This document shows positions 1 through 10,442 of a stretch of DNA of 64,000 nucleotides, in pieces (the first letter of the stretch is position 1; each line of letters begins with the position of its first letter). The DNA lies in the NCBI RefSeq assembly GCF_055900595.2, contig NZ_CM148325.1. The stretch is one strand, 5' to 3'. The notes beneath the pieces were generated by a model. It was not told the origin of the DNA and made no database searches. It saw only the letters and a list, made by a program, of their open reading frames with translations. Made by a program: the position numbers and the translations under genes.

Positions 1-675
1 GGAACCGTCATGCTGCTTCGTCTCATATTTCACGAGATAACTGGCTCTGTTCCGGGCTTTCTGCAGCGCTTCCACATCACCACGCTTGATCCAGAGAACA
101 GCGGCTTCACCCGGCTTTTTTTCTGAAGCCTTCCTGGTATCAGAACATCCACCCGACAAAGGCGTGTCATCGGAAGAAGGGCGAGCATCAGACGATGCTG
201 GTTTACGGGAAGGCGTCCACCTGGAAAAATGGACCAGGCCATCGCCTTGCCAGGCCTCAAGATGCAGGGCGCTGCACCATGCCTCCAGGATCATCGTCGC
301 CAGCGAAGATGGTTCGCTGAAATCCCCTGGCGAGCACCAGGTATCTTTGTTGAGCAGCAATATCACGTGATAATGTTTCCTGCCTTTTTCCTTGCCAAAC
401 TCCCGACACCAGAAATAACGCAGAGTGGTTGCACGCACACGCTTGTTGGCACGTCGTTTTTTCCGCTGGTAAGCCTGGATTTTGGCTTTCAGGGATTCGA
501 AAAAACGAGAAATCACCGCTGAATCCGGATCGGGATCCATGATGGTGACAGGCATATACTCAGGGAAACGTAAATCCACCCGGATTAACGAGACGGCACG
601 GTGCTGCGACAGGGCACTGTCGAGAAGGCTGTCAAAACGGGATAACCAGTAAGCATTGTGTATTGGTTGATTCAT
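1..675 (-). CDS. Island protein, YagK/YfjJ-like (inovirus Gp2-like family); partial, start codon at 675, continues beyond window start
   Basis: Reverse-strand reading frame open from ATG at 673-675 to position 1 without stop (about 225 codons, MNQPIHNAYWLSRFDSLLDS...); absent from ORF track presumably because no stop lies in the window. Family assignment from memory of CP4-type island proteins, not verified. Confidence 0.55.
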   Translation of the reverse strand, partial: MNQPIHNAYWLSRFDSLLDSALSQHRAVSLIRVDLRFPEYMPVTIMDPDPDSAVISRFFESLKAKIQAYQRKKRRANKRVRATTLRYFWCREFGKEKGRKHYHVILLLNKDTWCSPGDFSEPSSLATMILEAWCSALHLEAWQGDGLVHFSRWTPSRKPASSDARPSSDDTPLSGGCSDTRKASEKKPGEAAVLWIKRGDVEALQKARNRASYLVKYETKQHDGS

Positions 676-2252
676 GATGAGAGATCTCCGTTGATTTGGA
701 TTGACTTCACATCATTAATCACCGCGGTAAAACTTTACGGCATCATGTCATTAAGCAATGCTACAACTCTCTGATTAAGAGTGATTGAAACGGAACAAAC
801 CATCCCGGAACGAAAAGATAATCCTGCACACAGCAGCAAAACACGCAACAACAGCATGAATGGATTTAAAAACGACATGGACGACGAGAAAAGCCTGAAG
901 GGAAAAGGATCCACAGAACATTCGAACAAAACACCAGAAACGCAACCAGAACGCTTCCTGGCAATGCAAATCAACAACAACGCCAAAACCTACAGCTTAA
1001 TCACACAACTCAATCACGAATGCGAATGACACGTTTAAAACCTGTTTACAGATAACGCCGTAACACGATCATCCCCATCACCATCAGAATCGATTTTCTC
1101 ATCCCGAAAATGTTACGTTTCACTACGCACCATAAAAACGGTTAACCATCGATAACGTAAACCTTATCTGAATCAAAAACACCAAAACCGTTCATCACAC
1201 TTTCGCAATGCAAGAAGAAACCTCATGACAAAAAGAATGACCTTACACGGAAAAGAAAACGTCAGGAATCGTTAATGCCTCAATCTGATTGTTATCAAAA
1301 CATCCAGAAAGTCGTTTAACAGAATCGTCGTAAGCACATCGAAAAGAACGTCAGATCACCTCAGGAAAGTTCGGGTTGATTTAGCGTAAAGATACTTTTC
1401 TCAGCTTAACGTCGAAACACAAACCAAAAACCACAAACAACCAAAGCTCAGGAAAGGTTAAACGTCACATCAGTAAAATCGAATAGCAGATTGATTGCTT
1501 AAACAGGAAGGATTGTTTTACAGCAGCATTAAACTGATTTAGTTAACGTAAAATCAGAACTGACAGGTTTACTAACTTGGATGTGTATCAGTTCAAAAAT
1601 GTGTACAGCAATGCGTAATGAAACACATTTAAAGGAGATTAATGGGAAAGTGTGTAAATGCGTAAACAGGCACTAATGAATCACTGGAGGAATACATACA
1701 AAACGACTTAATGAAAACATAAAAGGACCTAATGGAAAAGGTGTATATAATACCATATCCGACATTCTCAACATCTTAAGACATCCATGCAGACTGAATG
1801 TTGGTTTCAGTTTTTCACGGTAAGCATGAATCTTTTCTGTTCAAAAGCAGAGCAGATTTACTCTGGAATTATTTTTCTTACTCCGTATTCTGTACAGCAA
1901 AAACTTGTGCTAACTTTACAGCAAACCATCATAATCAGCGTCTGTAGTCCCATCGCTTTACCCCATGAAAGTGAATCCATATGATGTGAGAGAGATAAGT
2001 CATCGTATCCGGTAAACACTGCTTACTATAACATAAGATCATTCAGTCAGTTTTATCTCTGAACTGACGATTATGGCATGCTCATTTATATGGCTCACAG
2101 AGGAGTGTTATTATCCGTAAGCTTTAATCATCAAATCACATGACCATACCAAACTGGCGCTATATCAGCTCATTTGACGCTCATTCCCTTTAGATTTCTT
2201 TATGTGTTTTTTGTTGATAATTAAAATGTAATATAAATTTAATATTTTCAAA

Positions 2253-3476
2253 TCATAAACACCATTTAAAACCATCATCCTGAACATCATACAACAATAT
2301 ATTTTTACTAAAGCATGAATTGTATACTTCTATTAATTCAGGAAAATTATCAGGATTCACCTTTAAATTCAACTGAATGTTACACTTAATTTCACTCAGC
2401 AGTTCTTCATGCGTGGATTTTATTATCCCTTTATCATAATCTATAAATACACACATGTTTTTCATGAATTCAAACCCTTTTCCTGTATACAGTTTGATGA
2501 ATGCCACAAGAGCAAACATTTCAAGATGCAGCCATAATGCCACGTGAGTTTTTCGCAAAGTATAAAAAATTGAATTCGCCACTTTTTTACTTATTGCTCT
2601 TTTGTACTGTGAGTGCGCCAGATTCAGTAGTGGCAATTCTCTCTCGATAAATGAAAGTGAAAAAGACGGGTAAATTGATGTCGGAAATATTTCAGGTCTT
2701 ATGATATTTTCGATTTCCACCATAAATCTATCCATAGAACGAAAATCATTTTCTTTTTTTATTCTGGTATAGAGACCGCCTTTATTCCTTACTGCGACTT
2801 TTTTTCGTGCTATCCCCCCCAACATTTCCTCTAATTGTTTATTTATCTTCGTATCATTAAATACAACCATTCTTCTTATCATCCTGGGAAGGATGATAAT
2901 ATCAGAGCTTGAATCACTTGAACGGCAATTATTATTGATCCATGCAACTTCAAGTTGAAGTATCGGAACATTAAATTCTCTGGGGTTAATAACTCTCTGA
3001 TATTGTTTTTTGTATGCGTTTTCATTAAGATATTCTCTGCTGTAGAGAAACTTATAGCAATATAATCTGACAATATCCTTTATGTAAGATTTAAATGAGT
3101 CACCTGTAACAGATATATTTTTTCTTCTCAGTAACTCCTGTGTATTGAGCCATTCCCGTGACCGGAGTACTCCATTATGAAGACTTTTTCTTACTTGCTT
3201 TGAATTGCGCAATTGATGTAATATTTTTGCGTCCTCAACAATTCTCTTTCCCGTTTGATTTCTTGCAGCATCTATTACTCTGTCAAATATCTCCCGGTCC
3301 AGACTTTTGTCATATTTACTGATTATACGACAAATATTCCTGACCCGACGGTTCTCTTTATTTCGTTTCCATAACTGATAATGATCATCACATAACCTCA
3401 GGGCATTTGCCTCATCAAATTCTGAAACAGGATTGCTGCATTTTTTATTCCGACAGATACCTTTGTTTTTAGCCAT
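2253..3476 (-). CDS. Hypothetical protein, 407 aa, strongly AT-rich, Lys/Asn/Ile-rich; N-terminal Cys-x4-Cys...Cys-x2-His motif; no family recognised
   Basis: Long uninterrupted ORF in ORF track; spot counts of lines give roughly 22-37% GC versus about 50% in flanking core genes; sits between YfjJ-like and YfjP-like island genes. Confidence 0.75.
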   Translation of the reverse strand: MAKNKGICRNKKCSNPVSEFDEANALRLCDDHYQLWKRNKENRRVRNICRIISKYDKSLDREIFDRVIDAARNQTGKRIVEDAKILHQLRNSKQVRKSLHNGVLRSREWLNTQELLRRKNISVTGDSFKSYIKDIVRLYCYKFLYSREYLNENAYKKQYQRVINPREFNVPILQLEVAWINNNCRSSDSSSDIIILPRMIRRMVVFNDTKINKQLEEMLGGIARKKVAVRNKGGLYTRIKKENDFRSMDRFMVEIENIIRPEIFPTSIYPSFSLSFIERELPLLNLAHSQYKRAISKKVANSIFYTLRKTHVALWLHLEMFALVAFIKLYTGKGFEFMKNMCVFIDYDKGIIKSTHEELLSEIKCNIQLNLKVNPDNFPELIEVYNSCFSKNILLYDVQDDGFKWCL

Positions 3477-3576
3477 ACTCTTCTTCCCGTCAATGGAAAA
3501 ATTTTCACGTCCATATTACCTGACTGAGAGGCCGGATTAATGTGATCCGGTTCAGTGAAATCAACAGGATAACGGT

Positions 3577-4461
3577 ATGTCATTCAGCCATTCTTCCCTC
3601 TCCGCACACGTAAAGTCACATCTGACCTTTCTTCCTGAAGAAATTCGCCAGAAAATCCTTGAACATCTTCGCAGCGTCATTCAGTACGAACCCGTTATTG
3701 GCATTATGGGTAAATCCGGTGCCGGAAAAAGCAGCCTGTGCAATGCCATTTTTCAGTCCCGTGTCTGCGCCACGCATCCGCTGAACGGCTGCACCCGTCA
3801 GGCTCATCGTCTTACCTTTCAGCCCGGTGAACGAAGAATGACGCTGGTCGATCTGCCCGGCACTGGCGAAACACCACAGCATGATCAGGAATACCGGGCA
3901 CTTTACAGTCAGTTACTGCCCGAACTGGATCTGATTATCTGGATCCTGCGGGCTGATGAACGTGCGTATGCTGCCGACATCGCCATGCATCAGTTTTTAC
4001 TGAATGAAGGTGCCGATCCCTCGCGTTTTCTGTTTGTTCTCAGCCATGCCGATCGCATCCACCCGGCTGAAGAATGGAACAACCAGAGCAGCACGCCATC
4101 CCGTCAGCAGGAACTCTCACTGGCGACGGTGACAGCCCGGGTGGCAACCCTGTTCCCTTCATCATTTCCGGTACTCCCCATAGCCGCTCCTGCCGGCTGG
4201 AATCTTCCGGCATTTGTGTCTCTGATGATCCACGCCCTGCCACCACAGGCAACCAGCGCGGTTTATTCGCATATCCGGAATGAAAAGCGCACTGCGCAGG
4301 ATCAGCAACACGCACAGCAGGCTTTTGGTGACGCCATCGGCCAGAGTTTTGACGCTGCCATTGCCCGGTTCAGCTTTCCGGCCTGGATGCTGCAGCTTCT
4401 GCGCAAAGCCCGTGATCGCATTATCCGCCTGCTGATCACACTGTGGGATCGCCTGTTCTGA
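3577..4461 (+). CDS. Island GTPase, YfjP/YkfA/YeeP-like (P-loop GTP-binding protein)
   Basis: 294-aa ORF with Walker A motif GIMGKSGAGKSS; sequence resembles K-12 prophage GTPases YfjP/YkfA. Confidence 0.85.
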   Translation: MSFSHSSLSAHVKSHLTFLPEEIRQKILEHLRSVIQYEPVIGIMGKSGAGKSSLCNAIFQSRVCATHPLNGCTRQAHRLTFQPGERRMTLVDLPGTGETPQHDQEYRALYSQLLPELDLIIWILRADERAYAADIAMHQFLLNEGADPSRFLFVLSHADRIHPAEEWNNQSSTPSRQQELSLATVTARVATLFPSSFPVLPIAAPAGWNLPAFVSLMIHALPPQATSAVYSHIRNEKRTAQDQQHAQQAFGDAIGQSFDAAIARFSFPAWMLQLLRKARDRIIRLLITLWDRLF

Positions 4462-6816: not shown

Positions 6817-7447
6817 ATGAGCAGAATTATCACCATCACAGTGTATACGCTGGATGAACTTTCCTGCCCGGCACGGGAAAAAGCCCGCGACGGGTACCGT
6901 CAGCATCATGCTGACAGCAACTGGTATGAAAACGTGTATGAAGACTTCAGGGAGGTCTGTGGCATTTTCGGAATTGACCTCCGCCAGCGCGTTTTCCGGC
7001 TCAGCAACGGCAGGTTTATGGAGGAGCCGAGCATCTGGTTCAGCGGATTCTGCAGCCAGGGACGGAGCCTGTTTTGAAGGACGCTGGCACTGGCAGTCAG
7101 CAACAACCAGGAGAGTCCGGGAGTATGCCCCGCAGAACCGTGAGCTTCATCGTATCGCGGATGCCCTGCAGGCGGTGCAGAAACGTAACTTCTGGCAACT
7201 GCAGGCTGAAATCCACCACCGGGGACGTTACTGCCATCCGTTATCACTGTTACCCGGAACAGTCCGACTGGTCAGGCTATGACAGCCGATGCGGAAGCCG
7301 CTGTCAGCGAAGCCCTGCGCGACCTGGCCTTCTGGCTGTACCGTCAACTGGAAAACGAGTACGACCAGATGACCTCAGACGCCGCTGTGGATGAGGCCAT
7401 TCTCATCAATGCATACATCTTCACCGAAACCGGTCAGCGCACCGGCT
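6817..7447 (+). pseudogene. Island gene apparently disrupted by frameshifts (about 210 codons spread over three reading frames)
   Basis: Contiguous overlapping ORFs 6817-7077 (frame 1), 6854-7282 (frame 2), 7074-7394 (frame 3) and a frame-1 tail 7279-7447; pattern typical of a frameshifted gene. Identity not recognised. Confidence 0.35.
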
Positions 7448-7498
7448 GACCTGTCATCGTTAAACCATTCTTAACCACTTTTCAGAGAGGATTTTATC

Positions 7499-7867
7499 GT
7501 GTCAGACACACTCTCCGGGATAACTCATCCCGACGACAATCACGACCGCCCCTGGTGGGGGCTTCCCTGCACAGTGAGGCCCTGTTTTGGCGCCCGTCTG
7601 GTGCAGGAGGGTAACCGCCTGCATTACCTTGCCGACCGCGCCGGCATCAGAGGCCGGTTCAGCGATGCGGATGCATACCATCTGGACCAGGCCTTTCCGC
7701 TGCTGATGAAACAACTGGAACTCATGCTCACCAGCGGTGAACTGAATCCCCGCCATCAGCATACCGTCACGCTGTATGCAAAAGGGCTGACCTGCGAAGC
7801 CGACACCCTCGGCAGTTGTGGTTACGTTTATCTGGCTGTTTATCCGACGCCCGAAACGAAAAAGTAA
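7499..7867 (+). CDS. Type IV antitoxin, CbeA/YfjZ/YafW family
   Basis: 122-aa ORF MSDTLSGITHPDDNHDRPWWGLPCTV... closely resembles K-12 CbeA (YeeU)/YfjZ. Confidence 0.85.
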   Translation: MSDTLSGITHPDDNHDRPWWGLPCTVRPCFGARLVQEGNRLHYLADRAGIRGRFSDADAYHLDQAFPLLMKQLELMLTSGELNPRHQHTVTLYAKGLTCEADTLGSCGYVYLAVYPTPETKK

Positions 7868-7957
7868 ACCACCGGAATAACCTTCTGCTCCGGCCAGGTG
7901 TTTTCACCACGCCACTCTCCCCATAATTTAATCTCTCATATCAGGAAAATCTTCAGT

Positions 7958-8368
7958 ATGAAATTATTACCCGACACACATGTACGGGAGGCATCGTGCT
8001 GCCCGTCTCCCGTCACCATCTGGCAGACACTGCTCATCCGTCTGCTGGACCAGCACTATGGCCTCACACTGAATGACACACCGTTCGCTGATGAACGTGT
8101 GATTGAGCAGCATATTGAGGCCGGCATTTCACTGTGCGATGCGGTGAACTTTCTCGTTGAAAAATACGCACTGGTACGTACCGACCAGCCGGGATTCAGC
8201 GCAGGAGCCCCGTCGCAGTTAATCAACAGCATCGATATTCTCCGGGCCCGCCGGGCAACAGGCCTGATGACACGTAATAACTACAGAATGGTAAATAACA
8301 TTACCCTGGGTAGCATCCGGGGGCGAAACGATGAAACTTTCCCTGACGCTGGAAGCCGACAGCATTAA
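7958..8368 (+). CDS. Type IV toxin, CbtA/YpjF/YkfI family (cytoskeleton-inhibiting toxin)
   Basis: ORF from ATG at 7958 (MKLLPD...[60 protein letters not shown]...) matches CbtA-like toxins; immediately downstream of antitoxin. C-terminal extent uncertain. Confidence 0.8.
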
Positions 8369-8753
8369 CGTGCAGGCACTGAACATGGGGCGCATTGTCG
8401 TTGACATTGATGGTGTAAATCTCGCTGAACTGATTAACAAGGTCGCTGAATACGGTTATTCACTCCGCGTGGTGGATGAACGTGACGCTACCGAAACACC
8501 GGCGACTTCTGCCAGCTCTCATCAGTTGCCGGAAGACAATACAGTGATACAGAGCGTGATGCCATTAACCACTGAAACAGCGCTGGATATCCTCATTGCG
8601 TGGCTGCAGGACAATATCGACTGCGGGTCCGGAATTATTTTCGACAACGATGAGGATAAAACGGATTCGGCAGCACTGCTGCCCTGTATTGAACAGGCCA
8701 GGGAGGATATCCGTACCCTGCACCAACTGCAACTTCTGCACCAGAACCGGTGA
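8331..8753 (+). CDS. YeeW-like island protein
   Basis: 140-aa ORF following the toxin gene as in CP4-44/CP4-57 modules; assignment by position and recalled similarity. Confidence 0.55.
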
Positions 8754-8837
8754 ATCTCACTCACCAGACTTCATTCTCCTGACGCCAGCCTGAACAGAGC
8801 TGGCGTTTTCGTTTATAAACAGAAAGGAAACCCCATA

Positions 8838-9623
8838 ATGTCATATATCACAATCCCCCACCCGAACGCGGTCAACGGACATACAGCCGTTATCTGTTCC
8901 ACAAGTATCAGACACATCCTGGCTGTACGAAAGAGTACACTGCTGCAAATCGACACGCTTATCCGGCAACTGACAGAAATCTCAGCACTGACGGAAAGTA
9001 TTGGCGGTAAAGCCGCCCCGGACTGGGCGATGAAACAGAATTTTCGCTGTGGTTGCTGGCTGATGGAGAAACCAGAAACAGCAATGAAAGCCATTACCCG
9101 GAATCTTGACCGCGAAATCTGGCGTAACCTGATGCAGCGTTCCGGGATGCTTTCCTTAATGGATGCACAGGCACGTGATACATGGTACAGGTCACTGGAA
9201 TATGATAATTTTCCGGAAATCAGTGAAGCGAACATTCTGAGCACATTTGAACAACTGCACCAGAATAAGGATGAAGTGTTTGAGCGGGGGGTGATCAACC
9301 TCTTCAAAGGGCTGAGCTGGGATTACAAAACCAACTCACCCTGTAAATTTGGCAGTAAAATTATCGTCAACAATCTGGTGAGGTGGGACCAGTGGGGATT
9401 TCATCTTATCAGTGGAATGCAGGCAGATCGCCTGGCTGACCTGGAAAGAATGTTGCATCTGCTCAGCGGTAAACCGATCCCCGACAACCGGGGAATATCA
9501 CCATTAATCTGGATGACCACATACAGTCCGTTCAGGGTAAAGGACGCTATGAAGATGAGATGTTCATCATTAAATACTTTAAGAAGGGAGCTGCACACAT
9601 CACTTTCAAAAGGCTGGAGCTGA
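8838..9623 (+). CDS. Hypothetical island-terminal protein, 261 aa
   Basis: Uninterrupted ORF with plausible RBS context; last gene before the tRNA-fragment repeat. Family not recognised. Confidence 0.6.
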   Translation: MSYITIPHPNAVNGHTAVICSTSIRHILAVRKSTLLQIDTLIRQLTEISALTESIGGKAAPDWAMKQNFRCGCWLMEKPETAMKAITRNLDREIWRNLMQRSGMLSLMDAQARDTWYRSLEYDNFPEISEANILSTFEQLHQNKDEVFERGVINLFKGLSWDYKTNSPCKFGSKIIVNNLVRWDQWGFHLISGMQADRLADLERMLHLLSGKPIPDNRGISPLIWMTTYSPFRVKDAMKMRCSSLNTLRRELHTSLSKGWS

Positions 9624-9848: not shown

Positions 9849-10442
9849 CGTTTCAGGACGCCATGTGATTTAAGCGTTCTGCCTTCAAATCATTTCTAAC
9901 AATCTCAACCAAATTTTCCCTAATCGCCAGCATGTTACGGGTATACCCCAGCTCTGGGAAATTTATCCCTAAGCTATGAATGACTCTCACGAAATGTCGT
10001 GCGGCTGCGTGATGCAGTTGAAAATCAAATGATGTCATCAAGAGCTTAACGGTATCGTTGCCGATGACATATATAAAGCACAACCTCGGGCAGAACGCCG
10101 ACTGATGAGATTTTCTGAATGAGAACAAAGAGTAATGTCTCAGTTCGTTTGCTCATGCAAAGACTAATAATCCATGAAAATAGTAAGTGCTCTGAGAAAT
10201 TTTCCATGGATTATTTTCTGAACATTTTTCTTTGGCAAAGATGATGAATTTTGATGATAAGGAATATTACTTCTGGTTCTCAGTAAACTCCTTTCGTAAT
10301 ACTATGTAATCAAGAAGTTTATGGCGGGTAAAAATAACGTCTTACATTCACCAACAATATGTAAATAAACCCATCTATAGATGGTAAAAATAGGTCATGG
10401 CAATTATCATTGAACCATTCCCTTTTCGAATGAGTTTCTATT

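What the first reader, a model, noticed from the sequence alone, without database searches (positions are those of the whole stretch)
2253..3476. Orphan AT-rich 407-aa gene in the variable defence slot of a CP4-57-like island: candidate uncharacterised anti-phage or abortive-infection protein
The ORF lies between a YfjJ/YagK-like gene and the YfjP-like GTPase gene. In K-12 CP4-57 the same slot holds yfjK-yfjL and rnlA-rnlB, which are phage-defence genes, so this is a recognised variable cargo position. The gene is far more AT-rich than its neighbours (spot counts about 22-37% GC), points the opposite way to the downstream conserved module, and encodes a Lys/Asn/Ile-rich protein with an N-terminal Cys-x4-Cys...Cys-x2-His motif (possible zinc ribbon). 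I recognise no family or catalytic signature. This is the strongest candidate in the window for an undescribed system.
Basis: partly seen in the sequence, partly recalled or inferred. Interest (0 to 1): 0.8.

Follow-up and report, generated by a model that had tools for sequence, protein, structure and literature searches.

The report
Nuclease-dead HNH-like island backbone gene
The AT-rich 407-aa gene is real and uncharacterised, but it is a conserved, selected backbone gene of one lineage of CP4-57-like genomic islands, not an orphan in a variable defence slot, and it looks like an HNH-type nuclease relative that has lost its catalytic residues; no evidence ties it to phage defence.

Summary
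The ORF (2253-3476, minus strand, 407 aa, 33.9% GC) exists as described, and its Cys-x4-Cys...Cys-x2-His motif is conserved across the family. It matches nothing in Pfam, NCBIfam, PADLOC, PHROGs or the PDB. It is not an orphan: it occurs in 974 of 5,426 complete E. coli genomes and is under purifying selection (dN/dS about 0.28). It belongs to a very small Enterobacterales-only family. In eight independent lineages (27-36% identity), the gene keeps the same place. It has a conserved promoter box and is followed by alpA and/or a yfjJ-like rolling-circle Rep gene. In seven of the eight it is divergent from a YfjP-like GTPase gene. Recognisable defence cargo lies elsewhere in those islands. Low GC is a family trait (28-37% in every lineage), not a sign of recent acquisition. 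A sister clade carries an invariant H...N...N block that aligns in register with the McrA and Cas8f-HNH active sites. In the query clade those positions are Trp, Asp and Arg. Best reading: a non-catalytic, DNA-binding HNH derivative that serves the island's own life-cycle module. A defence role is neither supported nor excluded. Interest is moderate.

The parts
2253..3476 (-). Gene X: 407-aa basic protein (WP_059328212.1, 'hypothetical protein'), clade A of a small Enterobacterales family
   Evidence: dN/dS 0.27-0.29 between E. coli alleles. AF2 model pLDDT 79, pTM 0.69.
3381..3455 (-). Codons for residues 8-32: C8-x4-C13...C29-x2-H32, a putative zinc ribbon
   Evidence: Invariant in A1 and at least 90% conserved in A2 and A6, including clade B.
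2865..2960 (-). Codons for residues 173-204 (LQLEVAWINNNCRSSDSSSDIIILPRMIRRMV): predicted beta-beta-alpha block homologous to the H-N-N block of clade B, with W179, D192 and R201 in place of His, Asn and Asn
   Evidence: hhalign of clade A vs clade B: 99.8%, E 2.4e-29, block aligned column for column. Strands 175-179 and 193-197, helix 198-218. Clade B block vs McrA and Cas8f-HNH.
3477..3576 (.). 100-bp divergent spacer between X and the GTPase gene (92-105 bp where the GTPase gene is present)
3511..3519 (-). GTAATATGG box, likely -10 element of the X promoter (or of the overlapping divergent promoter), 36 nt upstream of the X ATG in the window
   Evidence: Invariant GTAATAT(A/G)G in all 8 loci and in L019/L020. 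Not called by the consensus promoter scan.
3532..3550 (-). Inverted repeat CCGGAT-N7-ATCCGG, 13 nt upstream of the box; candidate operator or leader hairpin
   Evidence: A dyad at the same place but with a different sequence occurs in L016, L004, L012 and L015. It exceeds shuffles only in L016 and L004 (2-3 of 500); in the window 51 of 500 shuffles reach it. Weak evidence.
3577..4461 (+). YfjP-like GTPase gene, divergent neighbour of X in 7 of 8 independent clade A lineages
   Evidence: Absent in L019/L020.
1..675 (-). yfjJ/yagK-like 'inovirus Gp2 family' (REP_ORF2-G2P, HUH-type Rep) gene, truncated by the window edge; downstream of X in all clade A loci
1030..2252 (.). 1.2 kb AT-rich stretch without ORFs, downstream of X, where other genera have alpA
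   Evidence: Only 68-72% identical between the two E. coli alleles, against 91% for X.

Best explanation
Gene X is a conserved backbone gene of one lineage of CP4-57-like, tRNA-targeting integrative islands. Shown: it heads the arm that carries alpA (excision regulator) and a yfjJ/yagK-type HUH rolling-circle Rep gene, and it is transcribed from a conserved promoter box in a ~100-bp spacer. In most lineages that spacer is shared with the divergent operon GTPase-(WYL)-DUF932-ArdB-RadC-CbeA/CbtA. Shown in part: the protein has an N-terminal Cys3-His zinc ribbon, a mostly helical body with no solved structural relative, and a small beta-beta-alpha insert. That insert is homologous to an HNH-like (H-N-N) block in a sister clade, but the general-base His and the metal-ligand Asn are replaced by Trp/Phe/Tyr and Arg. 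Inferred: X no longer cuts DNA by the HNH mechanism. It acts as a sequence-specific or structure-specific DNA-binding factor for the island itself. It could control the divergent promoters through the lineage-specific dyad, or it could assist AlpA and Rep in excision or replication. D192 and R201 probably form a salt bridge that takes the place of the lost metal site.
For: Synteny across eight independent lineages at 27-36% identity. Invariant GTAATAT(A/G)G box at a fixed distance from the start codon. Pairwise identity of X tracks that of the GTPase (Pearson 0.72, Spearman 0.45, p 0.016). Purifying selection (dN/dS 0.27-0.29) in islands whose integrase, cbtA, DUF4942 and antitoxin genes are broken, while the DNA just downstream of X has drifted to 68-72% identity. 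Clades A and B are homologous over the full length. Clade B has an invariant LE[VI]xHxYPNxxGGxN...N...P..INR block. The only PDB hits of that block at E<=10 are HNH active sites in register: McrA at E 0.23 and Cas8f-HNH at E 1.4. hhalign of clade B vs McrA gives pairwise E 4e-4 over 22 active-site columns. There are weak hits at the same block to the IscB and Cas9d models. Distant AFDB structural neighbours are named 'HNH endonuclease'. In clade A the three positions are W/F/Y(K), D and R. The protein is basic (pI 9.6) with a conserved zinc ribbon. The island class was independently described as int + xis + HUH endonuclease + cargo + RadC/ArdB-CbtA/CbeA module (PMC12458937).
Confidence: 0.4

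Rival explanations
1. Anti-phage or abortive-infection protein, acting alone or as a two-gene module with the divergent YfjP-like GTPase. X would sense phage DNA or protein through the zinc ribbon and dead-HNH domain, and the GTPase would act as effector or switch.
For: The equivalent interval in K-12 CP4-57 holds AbpAB and RnlAB. These islands are defence carriers (PMC12458937). X stays intact in immobile, decayed islands. X evolves faster than its neighbours. The GTPase has a weak partial PADLOC match to the dynamin-like LeoBC model (E 3.8e-7). X is paired with the GTPase in 7 of 8 lineages.
Against: No PADLOC hit for X or any relative. No toxin, nuclease, NADase, membrane or other effector domain was recognised, and the only nuclease-like motif is degenerate. 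The position is fixed across genera, unlike cargo, which varies between the same loci. X is never found on phages, plasmids or viral contigs. The GTPase is widespread without X, and X occurs without the GTPase in L019/L020.
Confidence: 0.2
2. Establishment or anti-defence factor. A catalytically inert nuclease-like protein would shield incoming island DNA or act as a decoy for host nucleases, working with the neighbouring ArdB/KlcA antirestriction, RadC and DUF932 genes.
For: X shares a promoter region with the operon that contains antirestriction, RadC and DUF932 genes. Pseudo-enzyme character. Fast divergence.
Against: X is transcribed away from that operon and towards alpA and rep. It has no similarity to known anti-restriction or anti-defence proteins in any library searched. 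At 407 aa it is much larger than the neighbouring antirestriction protein (159 aa).
Confidence: 0.12
3. Active nuclease that uses a non-canonical site. For example, invariant E176, D192, R201, K142, R147, Y149, E319 and Y385 could form a different catalytic centre that processes island DNA (origin nicking, packaging or homing).
For: Several polar residues are invariant across both clades. The sister clade probably is a nuclease. X sits next to a rolling-circle Rep gene.
Against: The HNH general base and the metal ligand are both lost, and no other nuclease signature was found by Pfam, NCBIfam, PDB sequence or fold searches.
Confidence: 0.1
4. Decaying or spurious ORF in AT-rich junk DNA.
For: The island in this window is a remnant with several pseudogenes, and the adjoining 1.2 kb has no ORFs.
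Against: Full-length 407-aa ORF in 967 genomes. dN/dS 0.27-0.29. Full-length homologues at 21-36% identity with dozens of invariant residues. Confident AF2 model.
Confidence: 0.02

Closest known systems
HNH (beta-beta-alpha-Me) endonucleases, e.g. EcoKMcrA (PDB 6ghc) and Cas8f-HNH fusions (8ydb)
   Same: The sister clade B has LE[VI]xHxYPNxxGGxN...N...INR, which aligns in register with LEVHHVIPLSSGGADTTDN of McrA. The predicted beta-beta-alpha is at the same place in both clades. Zinc-binding Cys/His motifs are present.
   Different: In X the general-base His is Trp and the helix Asn/His is Arg. The CxxC pairs that flank classical HNH motifs are absent. No HNH profile in Pfam, NCBIfam or PHROGs reaches significance. 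The rest of the 400-aa protein has no counterpart in known HNH enzymes.
Clade B relatives (P0034, P0038, P0054-P0061; 'hypothetical', some AFDB neighbours labelled 'HNH endonuclease')
   Same: Full-length homology (hhalign 99.8%, E 2.4e-29). Same zinc ribbon and same C-terminal YNSxF motif. Also located in tRNA-type integrative islands near alpA.
   Different: Clade B keeps the H-N-N triad and has an extra CxxC...CxxxH finger. It follows int-alpA-DUF3987 (with or without ParM/StbB) and has no adjacent GTPase gene.
AbpAB (YfjL/YfjK) and RnlAB in the yfjJ-yfjP interval of K-12 CP4-57
   Same: They occupy the interval between a yfjJ-like gene and a yfjP-like gene.
   Different: No sequence or domain similarity. 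Those genes are lineage-specific cargo, whereas X keeps its position, promoter box and neighbours across genera. K-12 has no remnant of X or of the box.
Divergently transcribed master regulators of phage-inducible islands (e.g. SaPI Stl). Recalled from memory; a lead only.
   Same: X sits at the junction of two divergent transcription units of an integrative island, evolves faster than its neighbours, and has a lineage-specific dyad beside its promoter.
   Different: No helix-turn-helix domain and no sequence or fold similarity. X is co-oriented with alpA and rep, not opposed to them. Repressor activity was not tested.

Membership tests
HNH / beta-beta-alpha-Me endonuclease | General-base His at the end of strand beta1 | tested here: not met
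   W179 in X and W/F/Y/K across clade A. His is invariant only in sister clade B.
HNH / beta-beta-alpha-Me endonuclease | Metal-ligand Asn/His in the alpha helix, and structural Asn in beta2 | tested here: not met
   R201 and D192 in X, both invariant in the eight close clade A members. N173 and N164 are invariant in clade B.
HNH / beta-beta-alpha-Me endonuclease | Beta-beta-alpha fold at the motif | tested here: inconclusive
HNH / beta-beta-alpha-Me endonuclease | Significant match to an HNH profile | tested here: not met
   No Pfam HNH hit for any of 24 members. Only sub-threshold, in-register hits for clade B: McrA at E 0.23, Cas8f-HNH at E 1.4, IscB model at E 0.004, and hhalign vs McrA at 35% probability. 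Clade A vs McrA: nothing.
Known anti-phage defence systems (PADLOC-DB v2) | Match to a model of a known or candidate defence protein | tested here: not met
   0 families for X and for six relatives at E<=0.1-1.
Known anti-phage defence systems | Behaves as exchangeable cargo in a hotspot (different occupants between conserved flanks, or the same gene in different contexts) | tested here: not met
   Same flanks and same promoter box in eight lineages. Absent from plasmids, phages and viral contigs.
Known anti-phage defence systems | Confers phage resistance or abortive infection | not testable with these tools
   Needs cloning and a phage challenge.
Reverse transcriptase (UniProt label of homologue A0AAX3CP38) | RT palm motifs (YxDD) and a Pfam RVT match | tested here: not met
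   No conserved YxDD; the C-terminal VQDD of X is variable. No RVT hit. NCBI names the same protein 'hypothetical'.
Backbone of CP4-57-like islands (int, alpA, HUH Rep, GTPase-DUF932-ArdB-RadC-CbeA/CbtA module) | Conserved position relative to backbone genes across divergent islands | tested here: met
   However, X is present in only a sub-lineage: 1,067 places with X, against 3,746 places in E. coli that match some part of the 4.6-kb yfjJ-X-GTPase query, and it is absent from K-12.
Toxin-antitoxin / two-gene Abi module | Tightly linked, co-oriented small partner gene | tested here: not met
   No conserved overlapping or adjacent co-oriented ORF. The next gene (alpA) lies 286-431 bp downstream, and in E. 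coli 1.2 kb without ORFs follows X.

The most novel reading that the evidence does not exclude
X and the divergently transcribed YfjP-like GTPase form an undescribed two-component module, either anti-phage or island-maintenance. A nuclease-dead HNH/zinc-ribbon protein would act as the nucleic-acid sensor for a dynamin-related GTPase. The module would be carried as fixed equipment by a lineage of defence-island vehicles, not as cargo.
Probability: 0.12. Interest if true: 0.75.

Novelty: new variant of a known kind. Interest (0 to 1): 0.4.

Why it matters
CP4-57-like islands are among the most common vehicles of defence, virulence and resistance genes in E. coli and its relatives, yet how they are regulated, replicated and moved is largely unknown (PMC12458937). 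X is in 18% of complete E. coli genomes, including UTI89 (AFDB Q1R2M8). No database names it and no paper in the searched library mentions it by accession. Placing it in the island backbone, next to alpA and the HUH Rep gene and behind a conserved promoter, gives a concrete candidate for a missing life-cycle or regulatory component. Linking it to an HNH-like ancestor with a dead active site gives testable predictions: it should bind DNA without cutting it, and the clade B relatives should cut. The case also shows that low GC and a position 'in a defence slot' are not sufficient evidence for defence cargo.

Tried and rejected
- **Reverse transcriptase lead.** The UniProt name of P0016 suggested it, but there is no YxDD motif, no RVT domain, and NCBI calls the same protein hypothetical. 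Rejected.
- **Library searches.** Pfam, NCBIfam, PHROGs, PADLOC and PDB-sequence searches of X and of family profiles gave nothing usable.
- **alpA remnant or ncRNA in window 1030-2252.** No tblastn hit, no Rfam hit, no meaningful repeats. The block is only 68-72% conserved between the E. coli alleles, so it is probably decaying DNA.
- **Remnant of X or its box upstream of K-12 yfjP.** None.
- **Phage, plasmid or viral carriage.** None.
- **Strict X-GTPase dependence.** Rejected: L019/L020 lack the GTPase gene, and the GTPase is common without X.
- **Dyad as a firm operator.** It exceeds shuffles in only 2 of 8 loci.
- **Literature.** Searches by accession and by yfjP/yeeP/ykfA found nothing on this protein.
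- **Profile-seeded locus scan.** A scan with the wide alignment A2 failed for lack of a conserved stretch; A1 was used instead.

Full report
**1. Observation**

The ORF is there exactly as described: 2253..3476 on the minus strand, ATG start, 407 aa.
- GC is 0.339 overall, 0.28-0.39 in 300-nt windows, and 0.31 at third codon positions. The genes to its right are 0.53-0.61 GC, and the GTPase gene has a GC3 of 0.57.
- To the left lies a yfjJ/yagK-like 'inovirus Gp2 family' gene, truncated by the window edge (to 675, minus strand). To the right, across a 100-bp spacer, lies a divergent YfjP-like GTPase gene (3577..4461, plus strand).
- The protein is basic (pI 9.6), rich in L, K, I, R and N, and has no membrane segment.
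- The C8-x4-C13...C29-x2-H32 motif is real and conserved across the whole family.
- RefSeq calls the protein WP_059328212.1, 'hypothetical protein'.
- There is no match in Pfam, PADLOC or PDB sequences, and only noise in NCBIfam and PHROGs.
- The K-12 statement is also right: in CP4-57 the yfjJ-yfjP interval holds abpB/abpA (yfjK/yfjL), yfjM and rnlA/rnlB (AbpAB is a phage defence system, PMC10732053).

**2. The gene is not an orphan**

- The gene occurs in 974 of 5,426 complete E. coli genomes, with up to 4 copies per genome and almost always on the chromosome. There are two allele groups: 35 genomes at >=99% and 933 at 90-95% identity.
- The window allele sits in an island remnant beside cadC. 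The common allele sits beside yghD/gspL.
- The exact protein was seen on 248 contigs and is labelled 'MULTISPECIES ... Enterobacteriaceae'.
- Beyond E. coli the family is very small. Only 26 cluster representatives out of 1.84 billion match, and only 2 of about 100,000 species-representative genomes. All are Enterobacterales.
- It is absent from the phage, plasmid and viral-contig collections.
- Between the two E. coli alleles dN/dS is 0.27-0.29. The GTPase gene gives 0.12-0.22 and yfjJ gives 0.36.
- The 1.2 kb just downstream of X has drifted to 68-72% identity, against 91% for X.
- X is therefore a functional gene held by selection, even in islands whose integrase, cbtA, DUF4942 and antitoxin genes are broken.

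**3. The position is conserved, not variable**

I obtained the genomic context for homologues at only 27-36% identity: Klebsiella michiganensis L002, Citrobacter L004, four metagenomic or short-read contigs (L007, L012, L013, L015), and Enterobacteriaceae RIT691 (L019).
- Together with E. coli, this makes eight independent lineages. In all of them X is followed by alpA and/or a yagK/yfjJ-type REP_ORF2-G2P gene.
- In seven of the eight, X is divergent from a YfjP-like GTPase gene across 92-105 bp.
- The recognisable defence genes in these loci lie beyond yfjJ or at the far end of the other arm. They include type I R-M, TIR, BrxR/WYL with methyltransferases, PDDEXK and McrBC.
- All lineages carry an invariant GTAATAT(A/G)G box 28-43 nt upstream of the X start codon.
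- X is 28-37% GC in every lineage, next to a 45-58% GC GTPase gene. Low GC is therefore an inherited property of the gene, not a mark of recent import.
- Pairwise identities of X and the GTPase are correlated (Pearson 0.72, Spearman 0.45, p 0.016), although X diverges about twice as far.
- X is not universal in this island class. K-12 has no trace of it. In E. coli, X occupies 1,067 places, against 3,746 places that match some part of the 4.6-kb yfjJ-X-GTPase query. X therefore defines a sub-lineage.
- In L019/L020 the GTPase gene is missing, and a second, degenerate copy of the box region survives about 300 bp upstream. This looks like a rearrangement scar. It shows that X is tied more tightly to its own promoter and to the rep/alpA arm than to the GTPase.
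- This island class was recently described as carrying an integrase, an excisionase, an HUH rolling-circle endonuclease, cargo, and a RadC/ArdB-CbtA/CbeA module. The passages I read do not mention X (PMC12458937).

**4. What the protein is**

- AF2 gives usable models for X (pLDDT 79, pTM 0.69) and for a sister-clade member (pLDDT 81.5, pTM 0.73).
- Each model shows a small N-terminal zinc-ribbon-like element, a largely helical body, and one beta-beta-alpha insert.
- The family splits into clade A (X) and clade B (P0034, P0038, P0054-P0061). The clades are homologous over their full length (hhalign 99.8%, E 2.4e-29).
- Clade B has an invariant block, LE[VI]xHxYPNxxGGxN...N...P..INR.
- A 42-column profile of that block hits only three of 177,635 PDB sequences at E<=10. 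All three are HNH nucleases aligned at their active sites: McrA at E 0.23 and two Cas8f-HNH fusions at E 1.4.
- hhalign of clade B against McrA aligns 22 active-site columns (pairwise E 4e-4, probability 35%).
- Two clade B members give weak hits (E 0.004-0.02) at the same block to the IscB and Cas9d models. Some distant AFDB neighbours are named 'HNH endonuclease'.
- Against this, no Pfam HNH model matches any member.
- I therefore treat HNH ancestry as likely but unproven.
- In clade A the three key positions are W/F/Y (K in one member), Asp and Arg: W179, D192 and R201 in X. Clade A shows no HNH-level match to McrA.
- Whatever the ancestor was, X lacks the residues needed for HNH catalysis. 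A D192-R201 salt bridge replacing the metal site is my inference.
- The 'Reverse transcriptase' label on one UniProt homologue has no support.

**5. How it most likely works**

- Shown: backbone position, own conserved promoter, purifying selection, conserved zinc ribbon, degenerate catalytic block, basic charge.
- Inferred: X is a non-catalytic DNA-binding protein that serves the island itself.
- It may regulate the divergent promoters. A dyad with lineage-specific sequence lies 10-13 nt upstream of the box in five of the eight loci. It exceeds shuffles in only two of them.
- Alternatively, it may assist AlpA and the HUH Rep in excision or replication.
- I put this at about 0.4.

Rival explanations:
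- **Defence or Abi protein, alone or with the GTPase (0.2).** The K-12 analogy, the fast divergence and a weak LeoBC-like hit of the GTPase speak for it. The fixed synteny, the absence of any effector domain, the absence of PADLOC hits, and the mutual independence of X and the GTPase speak against it.
- **Establishment or anti-defence decoy (0.12).**
- **Non-canonical nuclease (0.1).**
- **Junk ORF (0.02).** Refuted by selection and conservation.

**6. Novelty and verdict**

- The gene is uncharacterised and worth an experiment, but the arguments offered for defence do not hold (orphan status, AT-richness, a variable slot).
- It is best filed as a new variant of a known kind: a catalytically degenerate offshoot of an unannotated HNH-like family, fixed in the backbone of a lineage of CP4-57-like islands.
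- No paper in the searchable library mentions it by accession.
- Interest is moderate (0.4). The gene is common in pathogenic E. coli and could illuminate how these islands work, but nothing found here is very surprising and the function remains inferred.

Noticed in passing
window 1030-2252: 1.2 kb AT-rich stretch (GC 0.36) with no ORF of 65 aa or more, no Rfam hit and no alpA remnant, lying where other genera have alpA. Parts of it (about 1030-1890) match 1,461 E. coli genomes and are almost never annotated. It is only 68-72% identical between the two X-bearing E. coli island alleles and is absent from the other genera. It is probably decaying DNA, but an origin or a non-coding RNA for the yfjJ-like Rep is not excluded.
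   Followed up: partly
window 3477-3576; spacers of L002, L004, L007, L012, L013, L015, L016: When the spacer is read towards the GTPase gene, the predicted leader folds into a hairpin in 7 of 8 loci (-13 to -19 kcal/mol). In several loci the hairpin pairs a CUCC stretch with the GGAG Shine-Dalgarno sequence of the GTPase gene. This could be translational control of the GTPase operon instead of a protein operator.
   Followed up: partly
L019 7324-8000 (and L020): A second, degenerate copy of the X promoter box region (GGTGATATAGGCGTGAAATAATCTGG) closely resembles the L007 promoter. It lies about 300 bp upstream of the functional box, in a locus that has lost the GTPase gene. This looks like a scar of allele replacement or rearrangement.
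   Followed up: partly
L020 (CACSKA010000007.1, 'Chryseobacterium sp. 18061'): This contig is 97.5% identical over 7.7 kb to the Enterobacteriaceae RIT691 island and has 47% GC. The Chryseobacterium label is probably contamination or a mislabelled assembly.
   Followed up: no
window 3577-4461: The YfjP-like GTPase gives a partial PADLOC match to the LeoBC model (E 3.8e-7, residues 183-284) and a weak one to LeoA. This suggests a distant link between the island-backbone GTPases and dynamin-like defence GTPases.
   Followed up: no
window about 6817-9623 and about 10000-10400; L001, L008: The island in this window is a remnant. The antitoxin-like gene, cbtA and DUF4942 are frameshifted, and the integrase next to cadC is truncated in the closest genome (GPEC389). 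X, the GTPase, DUF932, antirestriction and RadC genes are all intact. The window contains no tRNA gene.
   Followed up: partly
P0034/P0038 residues 47-67; P0018 residues 1-57: Clade B has an extra C-x2-C...C-x3-H finger that clade A lacks. One clade A member (P0018) has a tandem duplication of the N-terminal zinc ribbon.
   Followed up: no
L008 1-5100 (E. coli PK8275): In this strain a tet(A)-tetR, aph(6)-Id, aph(3'')-Ib, sul2 resistance block lies a few kb beyond the yfjJ arm of the same island. The arm can therefore accumulate resistance cargo.
   Followed up: no
UniProt A0AAX3CP38 (= P0016): This protein is named 'Reverse transcriptase' in UniProt, although it has no RT motif or domain and NCBI calls it hypothetical. 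This is probably an annotation error that could spread to other entries.
   Followed up: yes
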